47,731 bases of DNA from Escherichia phage JulesPiccard. This document shows, in pieces, positions 17,458 to 46,894 of this stretch. How positions within the stretch are numbered: the first letter of the stretch is position 1; each line of letters begins with the position of its first letter. Location of the stretch: the sequence record MZ501087. The stretch is one strand, 5' to 3'. The position numbers and the translations under genes were made by a program. The notes under the pieces were generated by a model. The model did not search any database. It worked only from the letters and a program-made list of their open reading frames with translations, and was not told the DNA's origin.

Positions 17458-20400
17458 ATGGCGCAAATGATCAAAACAAACATGAGGCTTTGTGATATGG
17501 CTGAAGAGATTAAGATTTATGGTGCTAAAGGCGGTAGCCAGAAGCAACACCAACCAGTGGAGCAGGAAGATAACCTTATTTCACTTAACAAGGTTAAGGT
17601 GTTACTTGCGGTTGCTGACGGAGAGGTGGACCCTAACTTCTCATTGAAGGATTTATACCTTGCTGACGTTCCGGTACAAAACCAGAATGGCACATACAAC
17701 TATGAAGGAGTTCGAGCCGAGTTTAGGGCTGGTACGCAGTATCAGGATTACATCGCTGGGCTTGATGGTGCAAACTCGGAGATTCAGGCTTCAAGGGAAA
17801 TCACAAACGATACCCCGTACATCATTGCGGTTAACAATACTCAGCTATCAGCAATTCGAGTTAAACTCTTTTGGCCCAGACTAGTTAAGCAAGAAAGTAA
17901 CGGAGACCTTGTTGGAACTACTTGCGAGTACGCAATTGACCTGTCTGTTAATGGTGGCGCTTACCAGGAATACACTCGGGGAGTTGCTAACGGCAAGACA
18001 ACTACAGGTTACGATCGCAGCATTCGTGTAAACCTTCCTGCTGAATTTGATAGCGCACTGGTTCGCATCCGCAAGATTACAGCGGACTCAACGAGTAGCA
18101 CACTGGTAAACGGAATGCAAATTACAACCTATCAGGAAGTAATCGACGCTAAATTTCGCTACCCTCTTACGGCTCTGGTTTATGTTGAGTTTGGTTCTGA
18201 CCTTTTTCCTAACGGGATCCCGACAATCTCAATCAAGAAGCGCTGGAAGCTAATTCAGGTTCCGACAAACTACAACCCAGAGACCAGGACTTACAGCGGC
18301 ACATGGAATGGCCTGTTCAAAATGGCATGGTCAAACAACCCAGCCTGGGTTCTTTATGATCTAGTGACAAATCGCCGCTATGGCCTTGACCAGCGAGAGT
18401 TGGGTGTAGAGATTGATAAGTGGGGGCTGTATGAAGCGGCGCAATTCTGTGACCAGATGGTTCCAGATGGCAAGGGTGGCTTAGAGCCGAGATACCTTTG
18501 CGATATGGTTGTTCAAAACAAGGTTGAGGCATACACACTAATTCGTGATATCTGTTCAATCTTCCGTGGACTAACTTTCTATGATGGCGAAAAGATTGGC
18601 ATCGTTGTTGATAAGCCTCGCAATCCATCATACATCTTCACGAATGATAACGTTGTAAACGGATTATTCAGCCGCACATTTGCCAGCGATAAGAGTCTTT
18701 ACACTACCGCGAACGTACAGTTTGACGATGTGGAGAACAACTATCAGCAAGATGTTGAGCCGGTATTTGAACTGGAAGCAACTCGCCGATTCGGGTTTAA
18801 TCCAGTCGATCTTACGGCAATCGGATGTACTCGCAGAAGTGAAGCAAACAGACGCGGCAGGTGGCTCCTGAAAACAAACCTGAGAAGCGAAACTATCAGC
18901 TTCACTACCGGATTGGAAGGCATGATTCCGATGATTGGTGAGGTTATCGCGGTCAACGATGCAGCATGGTCGAGCAACTATCAGTTAAACCTTTCCGGTC
19001 GTATTGAATCAGTGCAGGGATTGCAGGTTTTTACACCGTTTAAAGTTGACGCGGCGCCGGGTGACAGAATTCTTCTGAACAAGCCAGACGGGAGCCCGGA
19101 GGCGAGAACTATTGCAAGCGTTTCGGAAGATGGTAGGACGATTAACCTGAACACGGCGTTCAGCTTTGTAGCTCAACCTGATACTGTGTTCGCAATCGAT
19201 AAGGACAATCTGGCGCTTCAGCAGTATGTTGTGACCGGGATTCAAAAAGCAGATTCTGACGGTTCGGATTCATTCCAGTACACAATTACCGCTGTAGAGT
19301 ATGACCCAAACAAGTACGACGAGATTGATTATGGCGTAAACATTGTTGACCGCCCAACTTCAATTGTAGAGCCTGACAGATTGTCGCCACCTGAGAATTT
19401 AACAGTATCAAGCTACAGCAAGATTGTTCAGGGCTTATCAGTTGAGACGATGGTGATTGGCTGGGACAAGGCGCCATACGCTAAAACCTACAATGTTCAG
19501 TGGAGGAAAGAAAATGGCAACTGGATTAACGTACCAAGAACAGCTAGCACAGAGGTTGATATCGAAGGTATTTACGCAGGAATCTATGACGTTAGGGTTC
19601 GAAGCGTATCAGATACTGAAAACGTGTCTGCCTGGTCTGACATTGTAACGGTATCGCTAACTGGCAAGATTGGTCGCCCGTCGGCACCTACAGTTATCAC
19701 GGCATCAACTGATGAAGTGTTTGGCATCCGTGTTAAGTGGGGATTCCCTGAGGGCTCTGGTGACACTGCTTACACTGAACTTCAGCAGGTTCCTGATAAT
19801 GGTGATGGTACTTATAATCCTGATAATGCAAGTTTACTTACGTTACTTCCGTATCCGGCCTATGAATACTGGCACACGCCAATTCAGCCTGGCAAGGTTA
19901 TCTGGTATCGCGCAAGATTGATTGACAGAATCGGGAACACCTCTGATTGGTCTGATTTCGCGAGAGGCATGAGTACTGATGATGCCAACATAATCAACGA
20001 TTACATCAAGGTTGATATTGAGGGTTCGGAAGGATTCAAATATCTCGAGCAGAATGCGATTCAAAAGAACCAGGATGTTCAGAACCAAGCCGAGGCAATT
20101 ATCGAGAACGCATTGGCAAACGATACTGATGTTCGCCGCATGACAAAGGAGAATGGCGCCAGAAAGGCTGAGTTTGTTCAAGCAGTGAATCTCATAGCTG
20201 ATGAAACTCAGGCGCGTGTAGAGGCTCTTACGCAGCTTAAGTCACAGATTGATGACGAGATTGTTGGTCAGATTACAATGATTGAAACGGCGCTGGCTAC
20301 AGAGACTGAAGCTAGAGCAACGGCTGACACTCAGCTATCAGCAAGGATTGGTGATAACGAGGCCGCTCTAAACCAGAAGCTGGACGCATTCTCTAACGCA

Positions 20401-20853
20401 ACATCAACCGGTGTGCAGTACGGAATTAGTCTTGGCCTGAAATACAATGGACAGACTTATTCATCCGGTATGAGCATGGAGCTTGTTGGAACTGGTGATA
20501 ATGTTCGCAGTCAATTCATTTTTGACGCAAACAGATTCGCAATCAGTAACGGCATTGGTTCTGGTTCCGGTCAGTGGCAACTCCCCTTCGTTGTCGAGAA
20601 CGGAAACGTAATCATCCAGAGCGCGGTAATCGGCGATGGCTCAATCAGTAACGCGAAGATTGGAAACTTTATTCAGTCCAATAACTATGTAGCTAACACT
20701 ACTGGATGGAGACTTGATAAAGGCGGCACATTCGAGAATAACGGGTTCACACCTGGTGAAGGTAGAATGAAGCAGACTAACCAGACAATTTCGGTTGCTG
20801 ATGCTAACGGAAGGCTTCGTGTTCAGATTGGTCGTTTAACTGGAGTGTACTAA
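17458..20853 (+). CDS. central tail fiber / host specificity protein (lambda gpJ-like)
   Basis: 1131 aa, largest tail tip protein after I; internal repeat-like segments; start may be ATG 17498. Confidence 0.8.
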   Translation: MAQMIKTNMRLCDMAEEIKIYGAKGGSQKQHQPVEQEDNLISLNKVKVLLAVADGEVDPNFSLKDLYLADVPVQNQNGTYNYEGVRAEFRAGTQYQDYIAGLDGANSEIQASREITNDTPYIIAVNNTQLSAIRVKLFWPRLVKQESNGDLVGTTCEYAIDLSVNGGAYQEYTRGVANGKTTTGYDRSIRVNLPAEFDSALVRIRKITADSTSSTLVNGMQITTYQEVIDAKFRYPLTALVYVEFGSDLFPNGIPTISIKKRWKLIQVPTNYNPETRTYSGTWNGLFKMAWSNNPAWVLYDLVTNRRYGLDQRELGVEIDKWGLYEAAQFCDQMVPDGKGGLEPRYLCDMVVQNKVEAYTLIRDICSIFRGLTFYDGEKIGIVVDKPRNPSYIFTNDNVVNGLFSRTFASDKSLYTTANVQFDDVENNYQQDVEPVFELEATRRFGFNPVDLTAIGCTRRSEANRRGRWLLKTNLRSETISFTTGLEGMIPMIGEVIAVNDAAWSSNYQLNLSGRIESVQGLQVFTPFKVDAAPGDRILLNKPDGSPEARTIASVSEDGRTINLNTAFSFVAQPDTVFAIDKDNLALQQYVVTGIQKADSDGSDSFQYTITAVEYDPNKYDEIDYGVNIVDRPTSIVEPDRLSPPENLTVSSYSKIVQGLSVETMVIGWDKAPYAKTYNVQWRKENGNWINVPRTASTEVDIEGIYAGIYDVRVRSVSDTENVSAWSDIVTVSLTGKIGRPSAPTVITASTDEVFGIRVKWGFPEGSGDTAYTELQQVPDNGDGTYNPDNASLLTLLPYPAYEYWHTPIQPGKVIWYRARLIDRIGNTSDWSDFARGMSTDDANIINDYIKVDIEGSEGFKYLEQNAIQKNQDVQNQAEAIIENALANDTDVRRMTKENGARKAEFVQAVNLIADETQARVEALTQLKSQIDDEIVGQITMIETALATETEARATADTQLSARIGDNEAALNQKLDAFSNATSTGVQYGISLGLKYNGQTYSSGMSMELVGTGDNVRSQFIFDANRFAISNGIGSGSGQWQLPFVVENGNVIIQSAVIGDGSISNAKIGNFIQSNNYVANTTGWRLDKGGTFENNGFTPGEGRMKQTNQTISVADANGRLRVQIGRLTGVY

Positions 20854-20900: not shown

Positions 20901-21209
20901 ATGGCTGAGTATGGAATTGCAACATATGATGCAAATGGTAATTACAATAACTATGGGATTAAGCCAGTGACGGTTGTTGGTGTTGTTAAACTCAATGAGG
21001 GTCAAACGTCCGGATCTTATACTTACAGCATCCCTTCTGGATACAAAGTTGGTTACTTTATAACCCTTGATTCCGCAAACACGCCAAACAATGGCAGGAA
21101 CATAAGTGCGTCCGGCAACTCAATAACAATAACACCAAGCAATTCAACAGGACCAAACTACTACGCGGCAAGCGAGTGTGAAATGGTCGTTTATTTGGAG
21201 AAAGCATAA
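20901..21209 (+). CDS. hypothetical tail-associated protein
   Basis: RBS GGAG before ATG 20901; N-terminus MAEYG resembles next gene (MADYG). Confidence 0.45.
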   Translation: MAEYGIATYDANGNYNNYGIKPVTVVGVVKLNEGQTSGSYTYSIPSGYKVGYFITLDSANTPNNGRNISASGNSITITPSNSTGPNYYAASECEMVVYLEKA

Positions 21210-21880
21210 TGGCAGATTACGGAGCTATAATTGATGTGAATGGAAACCCATTTATCACACCTGCATCAACTCCATTTTGTCTATATGGAAAATATACCTA
21301 CCAATCATCTGGCAACAGTGCTGCTCACAGCGTTACTCAATACATACCGATTGATTCAAGCTATCCGGTTTGCGCATTCTTGAAAACCAGCAATACTGAG
21401 CAAGGTACGGCGGTGATAGCATATGCAATACGTAGCGGCGCGAATGCTGGAACTCTGTACGTGAATGGAACGAACTATTCAGGCCAATCATTCACTCTAA
21501 CCGTTTATGTTTTCGCTATATTCCCGCAAACCCTTCCGGCTTGGGGTATGGCGATATGGGATGCTAACGGGAAATTGGTTCTTACGAACGAAAGCAGGGT
21601 TCTTAGCGACCTGGAGACAGTACCAGGCTCAGGTTACACACTTGATTATACATATAATGGTAGTTACGCCGTTTCCCCGAGGGCGCTTGGTGCGGTTAAC
21701 GTTTATCAGGTGCAGAACGGACAGCAGATTATAAGGAGCGCAACGGCTGGTGTTTCTTGCAGATTTGATGGTTCACGAACAAGAATAAATGCGGTCCCTC
21801 TTATTAATGGAAGCGCCGCGAGTGGGGGTACTTCAAACGGTGGGCTTGTAACGGCGATCAATACAGCGGCATACGATTAA
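21209..21880 (+). CDS. hypothetical tail-associated protein
   Basis: 223 aa, Gly/Asn/Ser/Thr-rich; followed by bidirectional terminator. Confidence 0.45.
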   Translation: MADYGAIIDVNGNPFITPASTPFCLYGKYTYQSSGNSAAHSVTQYIPIDSSYPVCAFLKTSNTEQGTAVIAYAIRSGANAGTLYVNGTNYSGQSFTLTVYVFAIFPQTLPAWGMAIWDANGKLVLTNESRVLSDLETVPGSGYTLDYTYNGSYAVSPRALGAVNVYQVQNGQQIIRSATAGVSCRFDGSRTRINAVPLINGSAASGGTSNGGLVTAINTAAYD

Positions 21881-21903
21881 GCCCCTTTCGGGGCTTTTCT
21901 TTT
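21880..21903. terminator. bidirectional terminator between convergent genes
   Basis: GCCCC-TTTC-GGGGC flanked by T-run. Confidence 0.65.
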
Positions 21904-22132
21904 ACATTGAGCAATCGTGAGACTTAAAGTTATTCTCTGATACGTAGTGGAACGAGAATGGGTATCCAGCACGCAATATCATCTCCTCACCGCGCATCTG
22001 AGAGCCAAAAACATAAACCGAGTACTCTGCTCCACCTGATTCATAAATCGCAGTACATGTGCGCTCTGGCATCGTAGAGCAACCACTCAGGAGTAATGCC
22101 GCAATAGTAATGATCTTCTTCATATTTCTCAC
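21902..22132 (-). CDS. small lipoprotein (candidate superinfection-exclusion, Cor/Llp-like)
   Basis: signal peptide plus lipobox LLSGCS; 76 aa; RBS AAGGTGAG; just after tail fiber genes. Confidence 0.6.
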   Translation of the reverse strand: MRNMKKIITIAALLLSGCSTMPERTCTAIYESGGAEYSVYVFGSQMRGEEMILRAGYPFSFHYVSENNFKSHDCSM

Positions 22133-22133
22133 C

Positions 22134-22238
22134 TTAGAAACCGTTAAAATTAGAAGCCAGCATCAGAACCCAAACCAAGAAACCAGTTACAGCAGTGCCG
22201 GCGACCAGGGAGATTGAGTTGTTGATTAAGTTAGTCAT
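22134..22238 (-). CDS. small hydrophobic peptide (34 aa), co-operonic with lipoprotein
   Basis: MTNLINNSISLVAGTAVTGFLVWVLMLASNFNGF; below ORF-track threshold; promoter element upstream on minus strand. Confidence 0.35.
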   Translation of the reverse strand: MTNLINNSISLVAGTAVTGFLVWVLMLASNFNGF

Positions 22239-22277
22239 TTTGTACCCCTCATTAAGTTGTTTCGTTTCGATGGAGTA

Positions 22278-22320
22278 ATAGTATCGCATCCTTGCGAGCA
22301 GTGTTTAGCAATTCGTGCTA
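22278..22320 (-). promoter_or_regulatory. conserved promoter/operator element (drives lipoprotein operon)
   Basis: minus strand TAGCACGAATTGCTAAAC-N-TACTAT-TACTCCATCGAAACGAAAC. Confidence 0.55.
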
Positions 22321-22339
22321 TTGCATACACGTAACCGTT

Positions 22340-22640
22340 GTAACTCGATGTATACAATCTCATCCGCGAAAAATGATATACGCCCTGTTACGCCAATTTA
22401 CGCATTAGTTACATTAAAATATCTATATATATCAACCTTTTACTCTTATTATTATTATTATATATATTACTGTGTATATCATGTAACTACTTCTATAGAG
22501 CGTTCCGGTTATAATTTTAATATCATGTGGATTTATACAGTATTGCGCGGTAGCTATAACAATGCACCATCAGCGATAAACGGTATACACGATATACACA
22601 CTAGTTACATTGAGCTATAGCTGGGCTGAGGTGCTAAAAG
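22340..22640. repeat. AT-rich control-region repeat, copy 1 (contains (TTA)5 at 22446..22460)
   Basis: shares ATATCTATATATATCAACCTTTTA-(TTA)n-TATA core and TACATTGAGCTATAGCTGGGG tail with 39745..40060. Confidence 0.6.
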
Positions 22641-27274: not shown

Positions 27275-27296
27275 TGTAAAGTCTCCATTTGTAAAA

Positions 27297-27311
27297 TAGC
27301 ACAGATTGCTA
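27297..27311. promoter_or_regulatory. isolated operator palindrome TAGCA-CAGAT-TGCTA at tailspike 5' end
   Basis: perfect 5-bp inverted repeat with 5-bp spacer, 22 bp upstream of tailspike ATG on minus strand. Confidence 0.45.
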
Positions 27312-27337
27312 AGTTGGATTGTAGCAGCTTTCAGACA

Positions 27338-31187: not shown

Positions 31188-31607
31188 ATGAATATTACAG
31201 ACAAAGTTGATTACATTGAGTTTTACCCGGGCCCGGTTAAGTCATGCCCCAAAGAGGACGACGAACAGATCTTTTGCTCTGATTGGGTTAAGTACCATTA
31301 TCCTCAGATTATCTATTGGCATACCGTTAATGAGGGGAAGAAATCAATGTGCGCAGCCAGAAAGGATGCAGCAAAAGGCCTCCTTAAAGGCGTATCAGAC
31401 TGCCTATTTCTAATACCTGAACCATTGCGAGGAAGGTATCCATTTGGCGCAATAGAGCTAAAGAGGGCAGGGAAAACGCAGGCTAGTCCAGTCAGCGAAG
31501 ATCAGAAGGCATTCCTGAAGAGCGTAAGAGAATCAGGCGGCTTCTCGGCTGTGGCCTACGGTCGTGAAGGTTTTCTTGCGGCGTTCAGAGAAATGATTTC
31601 AAAATAG
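31188..31607 (+). CDS. VRR-NUC domain nuclease
   Basis: GVSDCLFLIP..GAIELKR (D..ELK nuclease motif); 1-nt gap after helicase stop. Confidence 0.6.
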   Translation: MNITDKVDYIEFYPGPVKSCPKEDDEQIFCSDWVKYHYPQIIYWHTVNEGKKSMCAARKDAAKGLLKGVSDCLFLIPEPLRGRYPFGAIELKRAGKTQASPVSEDQKAFLKSVRESGGFSAVAYGREGFLAAFREMISK

Positions 31608-34357: not shown

Positions 34358-34358
34358 G

Positions 34359-34442: not shown

Positions 34443-34619
34443 ATGACTAAGATGATTTATTGCACCAAGAACAACTCCAAGACTCTGCCGTTTACTGTCA
34501 ACCAGCCGTACAATGCGGAGTACCAGGGTGATGGATATTTCAAGATTTACGGCGATGACATGACGTGGATTTTAGCGCCGATTGATGGTTCGCTGGTTGA
34601 ATTTATTATCGCTGACTAG
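34443..34619 (+). CDS. hypothetical protein (58 aa)
   Basis: ATG after conserved leader; promoter element 34359; terminator follows. Confidence 0.35.
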   Translation: MTKMIYCTKNNSKTLPFTVNQPYNAEYQGDGYFKIYGDDMTWILAPIDGSLVEFIIAD

Positions 34620-34749: not shown

Positions 34750-34965
34750 ATGAGGGAAGTCATTAACGCCGCTACAGCATCAACTGGCGGCGCTGCTTTT
34801 ACTGGTGCGGCAACTGGTCAAATGACTATAGCAATAATCAGCCTTATCGCTCTGATTATTTTTGGTGCCTGGGGAGCGTACTGGAAGTTCAAGGATAGCC
34901 AGGCTATTCGCCGAGCGCTTGAATCAGGGGATCTAAAAACAGCACTAAAGATAAGGAGCAAGTAA
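34750..34965 (+). CDS. holin (probable pinholin)
   Basis: 71 aa, Gly/Ala-rich then hydrophobic TMD, charged C-terminus; directly upstream of SAR endolysin. Confidence 0.6.
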   Translation: MREVINAATASTGGAAFTGAATGQMTIAIISLIALIIFGAWGAYWKFKDSQAIRRALESGDLKTALKIRSK

Positions 34966-35451
34966 ATGAAGCAGAAGATAGCCATTACCGCGGCTACGGC
35001 TGCGGCTATATACATCGCGGCGCCGCTTATTGAACTTGTGGAGGGTGTAGAGAATAAGCCATACATGGACATTGCCGGAATTCCTACGGTCTGCGCAGGT
35101 ATCACTGGGCCTGACGTGACATGGGGTAAAACTTACAGTAACAGAGAGTGTCGCAACCTTCTTGAGAAGCACATCCAGATTCATGGAAAGCATGTTCAGA
35201 ATGCCGTTACCTATCCAATCGCACCTCAGACAAGGGCGGCTTTAATCAGCTTCAGTTATAATGTTGGTGGCTCAGCAATGAGGAATTCTACCGCTGTGAG
35301 ACTAATTAACCAGGGTAAGATTGAGCAGGGTTGTAAGGCTCTCGGGATGTGGAATAAAGCTACCGTTAATGGCAGGAAGGTTGTGGTTAAGGGATTGGTA
35401 AACCGCCGGAATCAGGAGATTAAATTATGTTTAAGTGGATTGCAGCGTTAG
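34966..35451 (+). CDS. SAR endolysin (lysozyme, T4/P1-Lyz-like)
   Basis: N-terminal Ala-rich weak TMD (IAITAATAAAIYIAAPLI) then catalytic E-x8-D-x5-T (VENKPYMDIAGIPT). Confidence 0.75.
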   Translation: MKQKIAITAATAAAIYIAAPLIELVEGVENKPYMDIAGIPTVCAGITGPDVTWGKTYSNRECRNLLEKHIQIHGKHVQNAVTYPIAPQTRAALISFSYNVGGSAMRNSTAVRLINQGKIEQGCKALGMWNKATVNGRKVVVKGLVNRRNQEIKLCLSGLQR

Positions 35452-35816
35452 TAATGTGCGTAGCTTTGTCTGGATGTTCAGCAACTGATGCACTGACCGG
35501 ATTGATTGGCAGCAAGCCGGAGGTTACAGCTCAGGCCGGGGCAGAGAATAACAAGGTTGGAGTTGGGTTAACGAATAAGGTCGACTCTAGTAACTCCAGT
35601 GATGCCACTGTTAAGGATTCCAGCGTAGGCTCTCTGGATAGCTCGAGTGGGAAAAAGACTGCTGACAATTCGATTAAGGCCTCAACAATTACCGCCGAAA
35701 AGATTGAAATTACCAATAACGAATCATCCGCGCTTCCGTGGGTTGGAACAGGAGCAATGGGTTTGTTGGTTTTAATTCTCATGGCATTAATCTTAAGACG
35801 TAAAAAAGCCTCCTAA
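35427..35816 (+). CDS. unimolecular spanin (u-spanin)
   Basis: N-terminal lipoprotein signal with lipobox LSGCS plus C-terminal TMD followed by RRKK; start embedded in end of endolysin gene. Confidence 0.65.
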   Translation: MFKWIAALVMCVALSGCSATDALTGLIGSKPEVTAQAGAENNKVGVGLTNKVDSSNSSDATVKDSSVGSLDSSSGKKTADNSIKASTITAEKIEITNNESSALPWVGTGAMGLLVLILMALILRRKKAS

Positions 35817-46816: not shown

Positions 46817-46894
46817 GCTCTGCTAGCTCAATTGGATAGCAGCAACGACCTTCTAAGTCGTAGGTTACTGGTTCGAATCCAGTGCGGAGCGCCA
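46817..46894 (+). tRNA. tRNA-Arg (anticodon UCU), CCA encoded
   Basis: 7-bp acceptor stem GCTCTGC/GCGGAGC (one G-U), anticodon stem ACGAC/GTCGT with loop CTTCTAA, T-arm ACTGG-TTCGAAT-CCAGT, D-loop with GG, 3' GCCA; D-stem has only 3 pairs. Confidence 0.75.

What the first reader, a model, noticed from the sequence alone, without database searches (positions are those of the whole stretch)
21902..22320. Lipoprotein plus 34-aa membrane peptide cassette after the tail fiber genes: candidate superinfection-exclusion module
A minus-strand two-gene unit with its own promoter element encodes a 34-aa hydrophobic peptide and a 76-aa lipoprotein with lipobox LLSGCS. Small outer-membrane lipoproteins encoded next to receptor-binding proteins in T5 (Llp) and phi80/N15 (Cor) block the phage's own receptor. 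Position and architecture fit that role.
Basis: partly seen in the sequence, partly recalled or inferred. Interest (0 to 1): 0.6.

Follow-up and report, generated by a model that had tools for sequence, protein, structure and literature searches.

The report
Cor exclusion lipoprotein plus small peptide
The lipoprotein is Cor, the known protein that T1-like and lambdoid phages make to shut their own FhuA receptor; the small membrane peptide in front of it is a real conserved gene but not a specific partner of Cor.

Summary
On the minus strand there is one copy of a promoter-like element repeated across the phage, then a 34-aa hydrophobic ORF, then 10 nt later a 73-aa lipoprotein precursor (76 aa only from an upstream GTG), then a terminator hairpin.

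The window is the whole genome of Escherichia phage JulesPiccard (Bas03). Its terminal receptor was determined experimentally as FhuA.

The lipoprotein is Cor itself, not just Cor-like:
- NCBIfam equivalog "phage exclusion lipoprotein Cor", 52 bits against a cut-off of 31.
- PHROG 1119, E=1e-28.
- 84% identical to T1 Cor and 36-41% to phi80 and N15 Cor.
- It follows the same two FhuA-linked genes downstream of gpJ.

So the superinfection-exclusion reading is supported, and it is already known.

The 34-aa peptide is a genuine gene. Frame and stop codon are kept in 20 loci, pN/pS is 0.37-0.49, and it has one TM segment. Its link to cor is positional:
- It is absent from T1, Bas09, a Dhillonvirus, N15 and phi80, which all carry cor.
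- Elsewhere it precedes a different lipoprotein, the SH3-holin lysis cassette, or the Dam methylase.
- In every case it is the first cistron after the same promoter element.

Its function is unknown. Overall the finding is ordinary, with one small unannotated gene family as a side product.

The parts
22304..22321 (-). Upstream promoter-like 18-mer ATAGCACGAATTGCTAAA, containing the palindrome TAGCA-N5-TGCTA. It is one copy of an element repeated across the phage.
   Evidence: 13 copies at 3 mismatches or fewer in the window, against 0.04 expected. The aligned copies share 18-mer, N7-9, GGATG, N3, TATAGT-like, then CCATCgAAAC, RBS and ATG. There are 13 copies in T1 as well.
22278..22283 (-). 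-10-like hexamer TACTAT. It lies 20 nt downstream of the 18-mer and is preceded by the conserved GGATG box.
   Evidence: The generic sigma-70 scan did not score it, because the TTGCTA in the 18-mer lies 22 nt upstream of this hexamer, too far to serve as a canonical -35.
22134..22238 (-). 34-aa single-TM microprotein gene (stop codon included), with Shine-Dalgarno GAGGGG at 22245-22250.
   Evidence: The 19-residue Kyte-Doolittle mean is 2.15 over residues 9-27 and there are no charged residues. Homologues are found in 58 phage records. Frame and stop are conserved in 20 loci. pN/pS is 0.49 overall and 0.37 in the C-terminal half.
21902..22123 (-). cor: a 73-aa lipoprotein precursor (signal peptide 1-14, lipobox LSGC, lipid-anchored Cys15, conserved Cys23 and Cys71). 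It is the superinfection-exclusion protein aimed at FhuA.
   Evidence: NCBIfam NF047972, 52.3 bits against a cut-off of 31. PHROG 1119, E=1.3e-28. 84% identical to T1 Cor, 41% to N15 Cor and 36% to phi80 Cor. The AF2 model is a four-stranded beta fold, pLDDT 80, and its best low-rmsd PDB neighbours are T5 Llp entries 7qjf and 8a60_B.
21879..21896 (.). G+C-rich hairpin between the convergent tail operon (+) and the peptide-cor unit (-). It is a terminator for the + strand and the probable end of the minus-strand transcript.
   Evidence: scores the + strand, where the T-run follows the hairpin. On the minus strand the hairpin starts 5 nt after the cor stop but has only a weak U-tract.
21209..21880 (+). 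223-aa protein of the FhuA-linked locus (N15/phi80 gp23 homologue; candidate receptor-binding component).
   Evidence: PHROG 425, E=5.6e-63. 54% identical to phi80 gp23 and to its T1 homologue.
20901..21209 (+). About 102-aa protein of the FhuA-linked locus (N15/phi80 gp22 homologue).
   Evidence: PHROG 557, E=3.3e-27. 56% identical to the T1 homologue.
17458..20853 (+). GpJ-like central tail fibre, immediately upstream of the locus.
   Evidence: PHROG 31 'central tail fiber J', 1232 bits.

Best explanation
The unit is the cor operon of a FhuA-dependent T1-like phage (JulesPiccard/Bas03).

How it most likely works:
1. After infection, host RNA polymerase transcribes the unit from one copy of the phage's repeated promoter element.
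2. The second cistron gives a 73-aa prolipoprotein. [quoted passage not shown]
3. There, mature Cor (59 aa, probably with a Cys23-Cys71 disulfide) binds FhuA from the periplasmic side, as T5 Llp does, and makes it unusable as a phage receptor.
4. This excludes later FhuA-dependent phages and spares progeny from adsorbing to debris.

The first cistron is a separate, real 34-aa inner-membrane microprotein. It occurs once per genome in a subset of Drexlerviridae, always as the first gene after the same promoter element, in front of cor, another lipoprotein, the SH3-holin lysis genes or dam. It is an accessory envelope protein of unknown function that is parked in the cor operon here. It is not a component that Cor requires.

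What is shown and what is inferred:
- Shown here: family membership, gene order, conservation, and the distribution of the peptide.
- Taken from the literature: the FhuA receptor of this phage, Cor inactivating FhuA, and Llp binding FhuA.
- Inferred: that this particular Cor excludes phages, the periplasmic binding mode, the disulfide, promoter activity and the peptide's topology.
For: Identity of the window: the 51-aa ORF is 100% identical to bas03_0032 of phage JulesPiccard, on a contig of 47731 bp. The BASEL S5 table lists Bas03, 47731 bp, terminal receptor FhuA.

Cor membership:
- NCBIfam equivalog 'phage exclusion lipoprotein Cor', 52.3 bits against a cut-off of 31.
- PHROG 1119, E=1.3e-28, full length.
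- 242 phage records carry homologues, many annotated as Cor.
- 84% identical to T1 Cor, 41% to N15 Cor and 36% to phi80 Cor, with invariant Cys15, Cys23 and Cys71.

Locus: the J-like protein is followed by homologues of N15/phi80 gp22 and gp23, then cor. The literature links this three-gene locus to FhuA use (PMC13164509; PMC8594841).

Mechanism, from the literature: Cor functionally inactivates FhuA, and predicted Cor structures share the Llp architecture (bioRxiv 10.64898/2026.03.26.714494). An AF3 model places a T1-like Cor on the periplasmic side of FhuA, ipTM 0.84.

My own model: pLDDT 80. Llp entries 7qjf and 8a60_B are the lowest-rmsd small-protein matches, TM 0.54-0.56 normalised by target length.

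The peptide is a real gene.

The peptide is not Cor-specific:
- No homologue anywhere in T1 (profile search of all six frames).
- In Bas09, cor follows the promoter directly.
- No such ORF before cor in a Dhillonvirus, N15 or phi80.
- In other phages the peptide precedes an unrelated 61-aa lipoprotein, the SH3-holin cassette, or dam.
Against: No experiment on this phage's Cor exists in what I could read, so exclusion is inferred from homology.

The Foldseek match to Llp is not significant on its own (E=0.14-0.42). It sits among Tudor/SH3-like small barrels. The sequence match to Llp is E=0.26 and covers mainly the signal peptide.

The molecular mechanism of Cor has not been solved experimentally.

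The tight 10-nt coupling of peptide and cor is kept in 9 loci across three subfamilies. That would also fit a functional link in those lineages.
Confidence: 0.88

Rival explanations
1. Peptide and Cor form an obligate two-component exclusion system. The peptide either helps Cor reach or act on FhuA, or forms a second barrier at the inner membrane against DNA entry.
For: - The two are co-transcribed, with a 10-nt gap and an overlapping stop/Shine-Dalgarno.
- The same arrangement occurs in 9 cor loci of Braunvirinae, Rogunavirinae and one Tempevirinae.
- The peptide also precedes a different lipoprotein in the same position beside a different receptor-binding allele.
Against: - T1, Bas09, Dhillonvirus, N15 and phi80 have cor without the peptide.
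- About 14 of the 242 cor-bearing records show the peptide beside cor, judged by matching coordinates. I checked 9 of them directly.
- Eight loci have the peptide before SH3-holin and two have it before dam.
- Related exclusion lipoproteins work or bind when expressed alone: Rtp45 with LptDE, and cor listed as the only gene involved for phi80 and N15.
Confidence: 0.08
2. The peptide is a lysis-timing factor, a trans-acting mimic of the pinholin's first TM segment (antiholin-like), and its place in the cor operon is incidental.
For: - In 8 of 20 loci it is the first gene of the SH3-holin-endolysin-spanin operon.
- Its N-terminal 19 residues align in register with the N-terminus of the cognate pinholin (hhalign P=0.0012). 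In SRT8 both proteins start MKDFI.
- From my own knowledge: in pinholins, TMD1 inhibits TMD2.
Against: - The hhalign probability is only 19%, over 19 columns of low-complexity Gly/Ala/Thr-rich sequence.
- The best-conserved part, W-V-L-x-L-A-S-N-F-N-G-F, has no counterpart in the holin.
- The cor, lipoprotein and dam contexts do not suggest lysis.
Confidence: 0.15
3. The 34-codon ORF has no protein function. It is a leader ORF that only serves translational coupling or mRNA stability for the next gene, or it is an annotation artefact.
For: - It is always promoter-proximal and always within -11 to +11 nt of the next start codon.
- It has no family in Pfam, PHROGs or NCBIfam.
- Only 2 cluster representatives were found among 1.84 billion proteins.
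Against: - The amino-acid sequence is conserved where synonymous sites are saturated: dS 1.5-2.3 with dN 0.4-0.6.
- The C-terminal motif is nearly invariant at the protein level, with pN/pS 0.37 over the C-terminal 17 codons.
- Many operons with the same promoter, including cor in Bas09, do without such a leader.
Confidence: 0.07
4. The lipoprotein is not an exclusion factor but a lysis lipoprotein (o-spanin-like) or some other envelope lipoprotein.
For: It is a small lipoprotein. The analogous 61-aa lipoprotein of Rao1 also weakly hits an Rz-like spanin PHROG (E=1e-4).
Against: - The window's protein hits Cor models only.
- The phage has a complete holin-endolysin-spanin cassette at 34750-35816.
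- The position next to the receptor-binding genes is conserved.
Confidence: 0.02

Closest known systems
Cor of phage T1 (Tunavirus) and other Drexlerviridae
   Same: 84% amino-acid identity, with the same lipobox and the same three cysteines. The position is the same, convergent to the gpJ / gp22-like / gp23-like genes. The phage receptor is the same, FhuA.
   Different: T1 cor has a different upstream region: no 18-mer element and no 34-aa ORF.
Cor of temperate phages phi80, N15, HK022 and mEp167 (NCBIfam NF047972 'phage exclusion lipoprotein Cor')
   Same: Same family, scoring above the curated cut-off, with 36-41% identity. The same two upstream genes are present (54% identity to phi80 gp23). 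All are FhuA-directed.
   Different: In the temperate phages cor is on the same strand as J and is expressed from the prophage as a lysogenic-conversion gene. Here it is on the opposite strand of a virulent phage, under a phage promoter element, and follows a microprotein gene.
Llp of phage T5 (PDB 8A60, 7QJF)
   Same: A small outer-membrane lipoprotein encoded beside the receptor-binding gene that inactivates FhuA from the periplasmic side. The predicted fold is similar (rmsd 2.7-3.2 A over 50-53 columns, TM 0.54-0.56). Others have reported the same for T1, phi80, mEp167 and HK022 Cor.
   Different: No significant sequence similarity (E=0.26; 17-20% identity in the structural alignment). The Foldseek E-value is not significant. 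The receptor-binding protein partner is different (pb5).
Rtp45 of phage Rtp (exclusion lipoprotein for LptD)
   Same: The same design principle in the same phage family: a small lipoprotein encoded with the receptor-binding allele that blocks that allele's receptor.
   Different: Different receptor and a different protein family. In the related phage CEB_EC3a, the lipoprotein and receptor-binding gene lie on the same strand and have no 34-aa ORF.
For the peptide only: pinholin TMD1, or small phage membrane proteins such as T4 Imm
   Same: It is a short single-pass membrane protein of a lytic phage. It has weak in-register N-terminal similarity to the cognate pinholin.
   Different: No significant homology to any described family. 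The comparison with T4 Imm is only an analogy from my own knowledge.

Membership tests
Cor (phage exclusion lipoprotein; NCBIfam NF047972 / PHROG 1119) | Full-length sequence match above the curated family threshold | tested here: met
   NF047972 equivalog: 52.3 bits against a cut-off of 31, residues 1-72 on profile positions 1-77 of 78. PHROG 1119: E=1.3e-28.
Cor (phage exclusion lipoprotein; NCBIfam NF047972 / PHROG 1119) | Lipoprotein signal peptide with a lipobox cysteine, and no inner-membrane retention residue at +2 | tested here: met
   MKKIITIAALLLSG-C15-S16. The lipobox Cys is invariant across T1, N15, phi80, Motto and Sd1 Cor. This was read by eye against the L-[AS]-[GA]-C rule; SignalP and LipoP were not available.
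Cor (phage exclusion lipoprotein; NCBIfam NF047972 / PHROG 1119) | Encoded directly after the gpJ-like gene and the gp22/gp23-like pair | tested here: met
   The same order occurs in T1, N15 and phi80.
Cor (phage exclusion lipoprotein; NCBIfam NF047972 / PHROG 1119) | The carrier phage uses FhuA | tested here: met
   The window is JulesPiccard/Bas03. Its receptor is FhuA in the BASEL S5 table.
Cor (phage exclusion lipoprotein; NCBIfam NF047972 / PHROG 1119) | Expression excludes FhuA-dependent phages and impairs FhuA transport | not testable with these tools
   This needs plating, adsorption and ferrichrome or albomycin assays. It has been reported for phi80, N15 and lambdoid Cor.
Llp (T5 lytic conversion lipoprotein) | Detectable sequence homology to Llp | tested here: inconclusive
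   phmmer against PDB sequences: 8a60_B at E=0.26, residues 2-46, mostly signal peptide.
Llp (T5 lytic conversion lipoprotein) | Llp-like fold of the mature domain | tested here: inconclusive
   AF2 model, pLDDT 80. Foldseek: 7qjf E=0.14, TMt 0.56, rmsd 2.7; 8a60_B E=0.42, TMt 0.54. No hit reached E=0.001 or better, and Tudor-like barrels rank alongside. Published models agree with a shared fold.
Llp (T5 lytic conversion lipoprotein) | Binds the periplasmic face of FhuA | not testable with these tools
   No complex prediction was available here. A published AF3 model for a T1-like Cor gives ipTM 0.84.
Obligate two-gene (peptide + Cor) exclusion cassette | The peptide co-occurs with cor wherever cor occurs | tested here: not met
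   Absent from T1, Bas09, Dhillonvirus GeorgBuechner, N15 and phi80. Peptide hits were found in 58 records and Cor hits in 242.
Obligate two-gene (peptide + Cor) exclusion cassette | The peptide is found only in front of cor | tested here: not met
   Of 20 full-length loci: 9 precede cor, 2 a different lipoprotein, 8 SH3-holin (7 full-length plus 1 truncated copy), and 2 dam.
Pinholin TMD1-like or antiholin peptide | Homology to the pinholin N-terminal TM segment | tested here: inconclusive
   hhalign, peptide profile against pinholin profile: probability 19%, P=0.0012, columns 1-19 against 1-19.

The most novel reading that the evidence does not exclude
The 34-aa ORF founds an undescribed family of Drexlerviridae membrane microproteins. 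It has one TM segment and the invariant motif W-x3-L-A-x2-F-x-G-F-stop, and occurs once per genome. It hops between three promoter-proximal slots (cor or another exclusion lipoprotein, the SH3-pinholin lysis cassette, dam), probably by recombination between copies of the phage's repeated promoter element. It would have its own envelope function, for example trans-regulation of the pinholin or an inner-membrane block to DNA entry that complements Cor.
Probability: 0.25. Interest if true: 0.45.

Novelty: already known. Interest (0 to 1): 0.18.

Why it matters
This changes little about what is known of exclusion.

Cor-type lipoproteins beside the receptor-binding genes of FhuA-dependent siphophages are an established design. 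This phage's receptor is already published, and a 2026 paper has already surveyed the BASEL phages for the cor cassette.

The practical points are about annotation:
- The gene can safely be named cor, 73 aa.
- The 51-aa database ORF upstream should be shortened to 34 aa.

The only new element is the microprotein family and its promoter-linked mobility. That could make a small, tractable case of how phages shuffle first cistrons between operons. It also gives a candidate for an unknown envelope function in an experimentally accessible BASEL phage.

Tried and rejected
- **Pfam:** nothing significant for either protein.
- **PDB by sequence:** designed repeat proteins (spurious, no single stretch significant) and Llp at E=0.26.
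- **Foldseek against PDB:** no hit at E=0.001 or better. Llp is present but not separable from Tudor/SH3-like barrels.
- **The search for homologous proteins with the peptide:** The 51-aa extended ORF found only itself (which identified the phage) and one other cluster.
- **Full HMMER scan of 1.84 billion representatives:** only 2 hits and no fusion proteins that could hint at function.
- **IMG/VR scan with the peptide profile:** 10 loci, mostly the same isolate genomes.
- **PHROG hit of the 51-aa version to 'TreN-like membrane protein':** E=0.021. I rejected it because the 34-aa sequence alone gives no hit, and the extension is untranslated promoter sequence.
- **Peptide against pinholin, profile-profile:** inconclusive.
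- **Rfam:** nothing on 21800-22450. The whole window holds one tRNA.
- **The 61-aa lipoprotein of Rao1/IME253:** I expected an Rtp45 homologue. It matched nothing in the PDB sequences and occurs in only 5 phages, 6 records, so its receptor is unknown.
- **Generic sigma-70 scan:** it did not call the cassette's promoter. The promoter reading rests on the repeat alignment instead.
- **The phage's own GenBank record (MZ501087):** not in the annotated collection.
- **Literature search for a description of the repeated promoter motif:** nothing found.

Full report
**What is in the sequence**

Reading the minus strand from 22321 down to 21879:
- an 18-mer, ATAGCACGAATTGCTAAA (22304-22321);
- a GGATG box and a -10-like TACTAT (22278-22283);
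- a 39-nt leader with the Shine-Dalgarno GAGGGG;
- a 34-codon ORF (ATG 22238, stop 22134-22136): MTNLINNSISLVAGTAVTGFLVWVLMLASNFNGF;
- a 10-nt spacer, GGTGAGAAAT;
- a 73-codon ORF (ATG 22123, stop 21902-21904): MKKIITIAALLLSGCSTMPERTC...HDCSM;
- a G+C-rich hairpin (21879-21896) shared with the convergent tail operon.

Homologues and family profiles begin at the MKK methionine, so 73 aa is the better call. The lipobox (L-S-G-C15) and Ser at +2 are as described. The peptide has no charged residue, and its 19-residue Kyte-Doolittle mean is 2.15 over residues 9-27.

**Where the window comes from**

The extended 51-aa version of the small ORF is 100% identical to 'hypothetical protein bas03_0032 [Escherichia phage JulesPiccard]', on a contig of 47731 bp, which is the window's length. 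The BASEL collection's S5 table lists JulesPiccard (Bas03, MZ501087, 47731 bp, Drexlerviridae, Braunvirinae) with FhuA as its terminal receptor (PMC8594841 supplement). The nearest record in the annotated phage collection is RobRod40, which annotates the homologous gene as 'Cor superinfection exclusion protein'.

**The lipoprotein is Cor**

- It matches the NCBIfam equivalog NF047972, 'phage exclusion lipoprotein Cor', at 52.3 bits against a curated cut-off of 31.
- It matches PHROG 1119, 'Cor superinfection exclusion protein', at E=1.3e-28 over its full length.
- tblastn finds homologues in 242 phage records: T1-like phages at 50-92% identity and lambdoid HK/mEp phages at 34-40%.
- In a direct alignment it is 84% identical to T1 Cor, 41% to N15 Cor and 36% to phi80 Cor. 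The lipid-anchor Cys15 and two further cysteines (Cys23, Cys71) are invariant, which suggests a periplasmic disulfide.

The surroundings agree. A GpJ-like protein is followed by a protein of about 102 aa and one of 223 aa. These are 54-56% identical to the corresponding T1 proteins, and the 223-aa protein is 54% identical to phi80 gp23. That is the gene order of T1, N15 and phi80.

The literature ties this three-gene locus to FhuA use (citing Wietzorrek 2006). It describes Cor as a lipoprotein that functionally inactivates FhuA. A spanin role is excluded in practice, because a complete holin-endolysin-spanin cassette lies at 34750-35816.

**Relation to T5 Llp**

Sequence comparison with solved structures gives Llp (8a60_B) only at E=0.26, mostly over the signal peptide.

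An AlphaFold2 model built from 15 homologues has mean pLDDT 80 (above 90 for the mature domain) and four beta strands. Foldseek against the PDB gives no hit at E=0.001 or better. The two Llp entries are among the top hits and have the lowest rmsd: 7qjf at 2.7 A over 53 columns (TM 0.56 by target length), and 8a60_B at 3.2 A over 50 columns (TM 0.54). They sit in a crowd of Tudor/SH3-like barrels.

On my data alone the shared fold is plausible but not proven. Two recent papers reach the same conclusion with other Cor proteins, and one reports an AF3 Cor-FhuA model on the periplasmic side with ipTM 0.84. So the protein is a member of the Cor family, and it probably works like Llp.

**The 34-aa ORF is a real gene**

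tblastn finds it in 58 phage records, all T1-like phages of Escherichia, Shigella, Klebsiella, Enterobacter, Citrobacter and Pantoea, or records with mislabelled hosts. It occurs once per genome, apart from one record with a duplicated assembly segment.

In 17 sequences taken from fetched loci, the frame, the length (30-38 aa) and the stop directly after '...GF' are all kept. Residues W23, L27, A28, F31, G33 and F34 are invariant.

Nei-Gojobori counts give a pooled pN/pS of 0.49, and 0.37 for the C-terminal 17 codons. For the distant pairs dS is 1.5-2.3 against dN of 0.4-0.6. Selection therefore acts on the protein.

The 51-aa database annotation starts inside the promoter element, upstream of the -10 box. 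Homologues elsewhere are annotated at 34-35 aa. The 34-aa start, with its Shine-Dalgarno, is the right one.

**The peptide is not a Cor partner**

- A profile of nine peptides finds nothing in any frame of the whole T1 genome.
- In Bas09 (PaulSarasin) the same promoter element is followed directly by cor.
- A Dhillonvirus cor has an ordinary sigma-70-like promoter and no small ORF.
- N15 and phi80 have cor on the J strand with no such ORF.
- The LptD-type relative CEB_EC3a lacks it.

Conversely, in 20 full-length loci the gene that starts within -11 to +11 nt of the peptide's stop is one of the following:
- cor, in 9 loci;
- an unrelated 61-aa lipoprotein next to a different receptor-binding allele, in the Rao1/IME253 group (one member of which was grown on a fhuA deletion host);
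- the SH3/DUF7244 gene that heads the pinholin-endolysin-spanin cassette, in 8 loci including one truncated copy;
- the Dam methyltransferase, in 2 loci.

In all 20, the phage's 18-mer element lies 74-95 nt upstream of the peptide's ATG. The peptide is therefore a mobile 'first cistron'.

The leaders of the cor-operon copy and of the promoter copy at 31604 are nearly identical. That suggests recombination between promoter copies moves the peptide. This last step is inference.

**What the peptide might do**

I have no solid lead. It has no family in Pfam, PHROGs or NCBIfam. Only two cluster representatives and no fusions turned up among 1.84 billion proteins.

Its first 19 residues align in register with the N-terminus of the cognate pinholin (hhalign P=0.0012 but probability 19%). 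In SRT8 both proteins begin MKDFI. This is a weak hint of a holin-related role, and I rank it as a rival rather than a finding.

Most of its neighbours are envelope functions: exclusion lipoproteins and lysis genes. That fits an envelope role, but the dam context does not.

**The promoter element**

The 18-mer occurs 13 times in the window at 3 mismatches or fewer, against 0.04 expected, and 15 times at 4 or fewer. In 12 of the 13 copies a TATAGT-like box follows about 20 nt downstream of the 18-mer, and in most of these a CCATCgAAAC leader, a Shine-Dalgarno and a start codon follow. T1 also has 13 copies. A degenerate copy precedes the SH3-like ORF at 34443.

The TTGCTA inside the 18-mer lies about 22 nt upstream of the -10 box. 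That is too far for a canonical -35, which is why the generic scan missed it. The 18-mer also contains the palindrome TAGCA-N5-TGCTA.

Its activity, and whether it needs a phage activator, remain untested. I found no description of it in the searchable literature.

**Verdict**

The lipoprotein is the known Cor exclusion protein of a published, FhuA-dependent BASEL phage.

The peptide is a genuine but uncharacterised microprotein whose association with cor is positional. Interest is low (0.18).

The most novel reading left open is an independent envelope function for the mobile microprotein family (probability about 0.25, interest about 0.45 if true).

Noticed in passing
window 2174+, 14297+, 22321-, 23948+, 27296+, 28366-, 28640-, 31604+, 37916-, 38696-, 41243+, 42374+, 43744+, 44362+, 45510+; degenerate copy at 34358+: A promoter-like element of about 55 nt: ATAGCACGAATTGCTAAA, N7-9, GGATG, N3, TATAGT-like, CCATCgAAAC, RBS, ATG. 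There are 13 copies at 3 mismatches or fewer (0.04 expected) and 15 at 4 or fewer. The same 18-mer occurs 13 times in T1. The TTGCTA lies about 22 nt from the -10 box and the 18-mer holds the palindrome TAGCA-N5-TGCTA, so the promoter may depend on an activator.
   Followed up: partly
window 22137-22289 (-): The public annotation of this ORF (bas03_0032, 51 aa) starts inside the promoter element, upstream of the -10 box. The conserved start, which has a Shine-Dalgarno, gives 34 aa, as annotated in Rao1 and BrunoManser.
   Followed up: yes
window 34443-34619 (+), upstream of the holin at 34750-34965: A 58-aa ORF (PHROG 4788) homologous to the standalone SH3/DUF7244 gene recently described as part of the Drexlerviridae lysis module. 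In other genera the 34-aa peptide gene sits directly in front of it; here it does not.
   Followed up: partly
L003:2607-2792 (Rao1); the same gene occurs in IME253, phiA2-1, TR3 and ZL19: A 61-aa lipoprotein (MKKLIVITAMILAGC...) occupies the cor position after the peptide gene, beside a different receptor-binding allele. It is found in only 5 phages, one of them grown on a fhuA deletion host. It matches the Cor PHROG weakly (E=7e-5). It is probably an exclusion lipoprotein for an unidentified receptor.
   Followed up: partly
window 22238-22182 (-) compared with 34750-34806 (+); L005:2489-2596 compared with L005:2906-3121: The N-terminus of the peptide resembles the N-terminus of the same phage's pinholin (MKDFI... 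in both SRT8 proteins). Profile-profile P=0.0012, probability 19%.
   Followed up: partly
window 22315-22620 (+): A 101-aa ORF runs antisense through the cassette's promoter and the AT-rich divergent region. It has no PHROG match. RobRod40 annotates a similar ORF. It is probably not a gene.
   Followed up: partly
window 46817-46891 (+): A single tRNA gene (Rfam RF00005, 57 bits). This agrees with the single tRNA I read for Bas03 in the BASEL table.
   Followed up: no
window 27296-27313 (+) and downstream: One copy of the 18-mer (3 mismatches) lies between two minus-strand genes. It is followed by a terminator-like hairpin rather than a -10 box and a gene, so it may be a decayed or reverse-oriented copy.
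   Followed up: no
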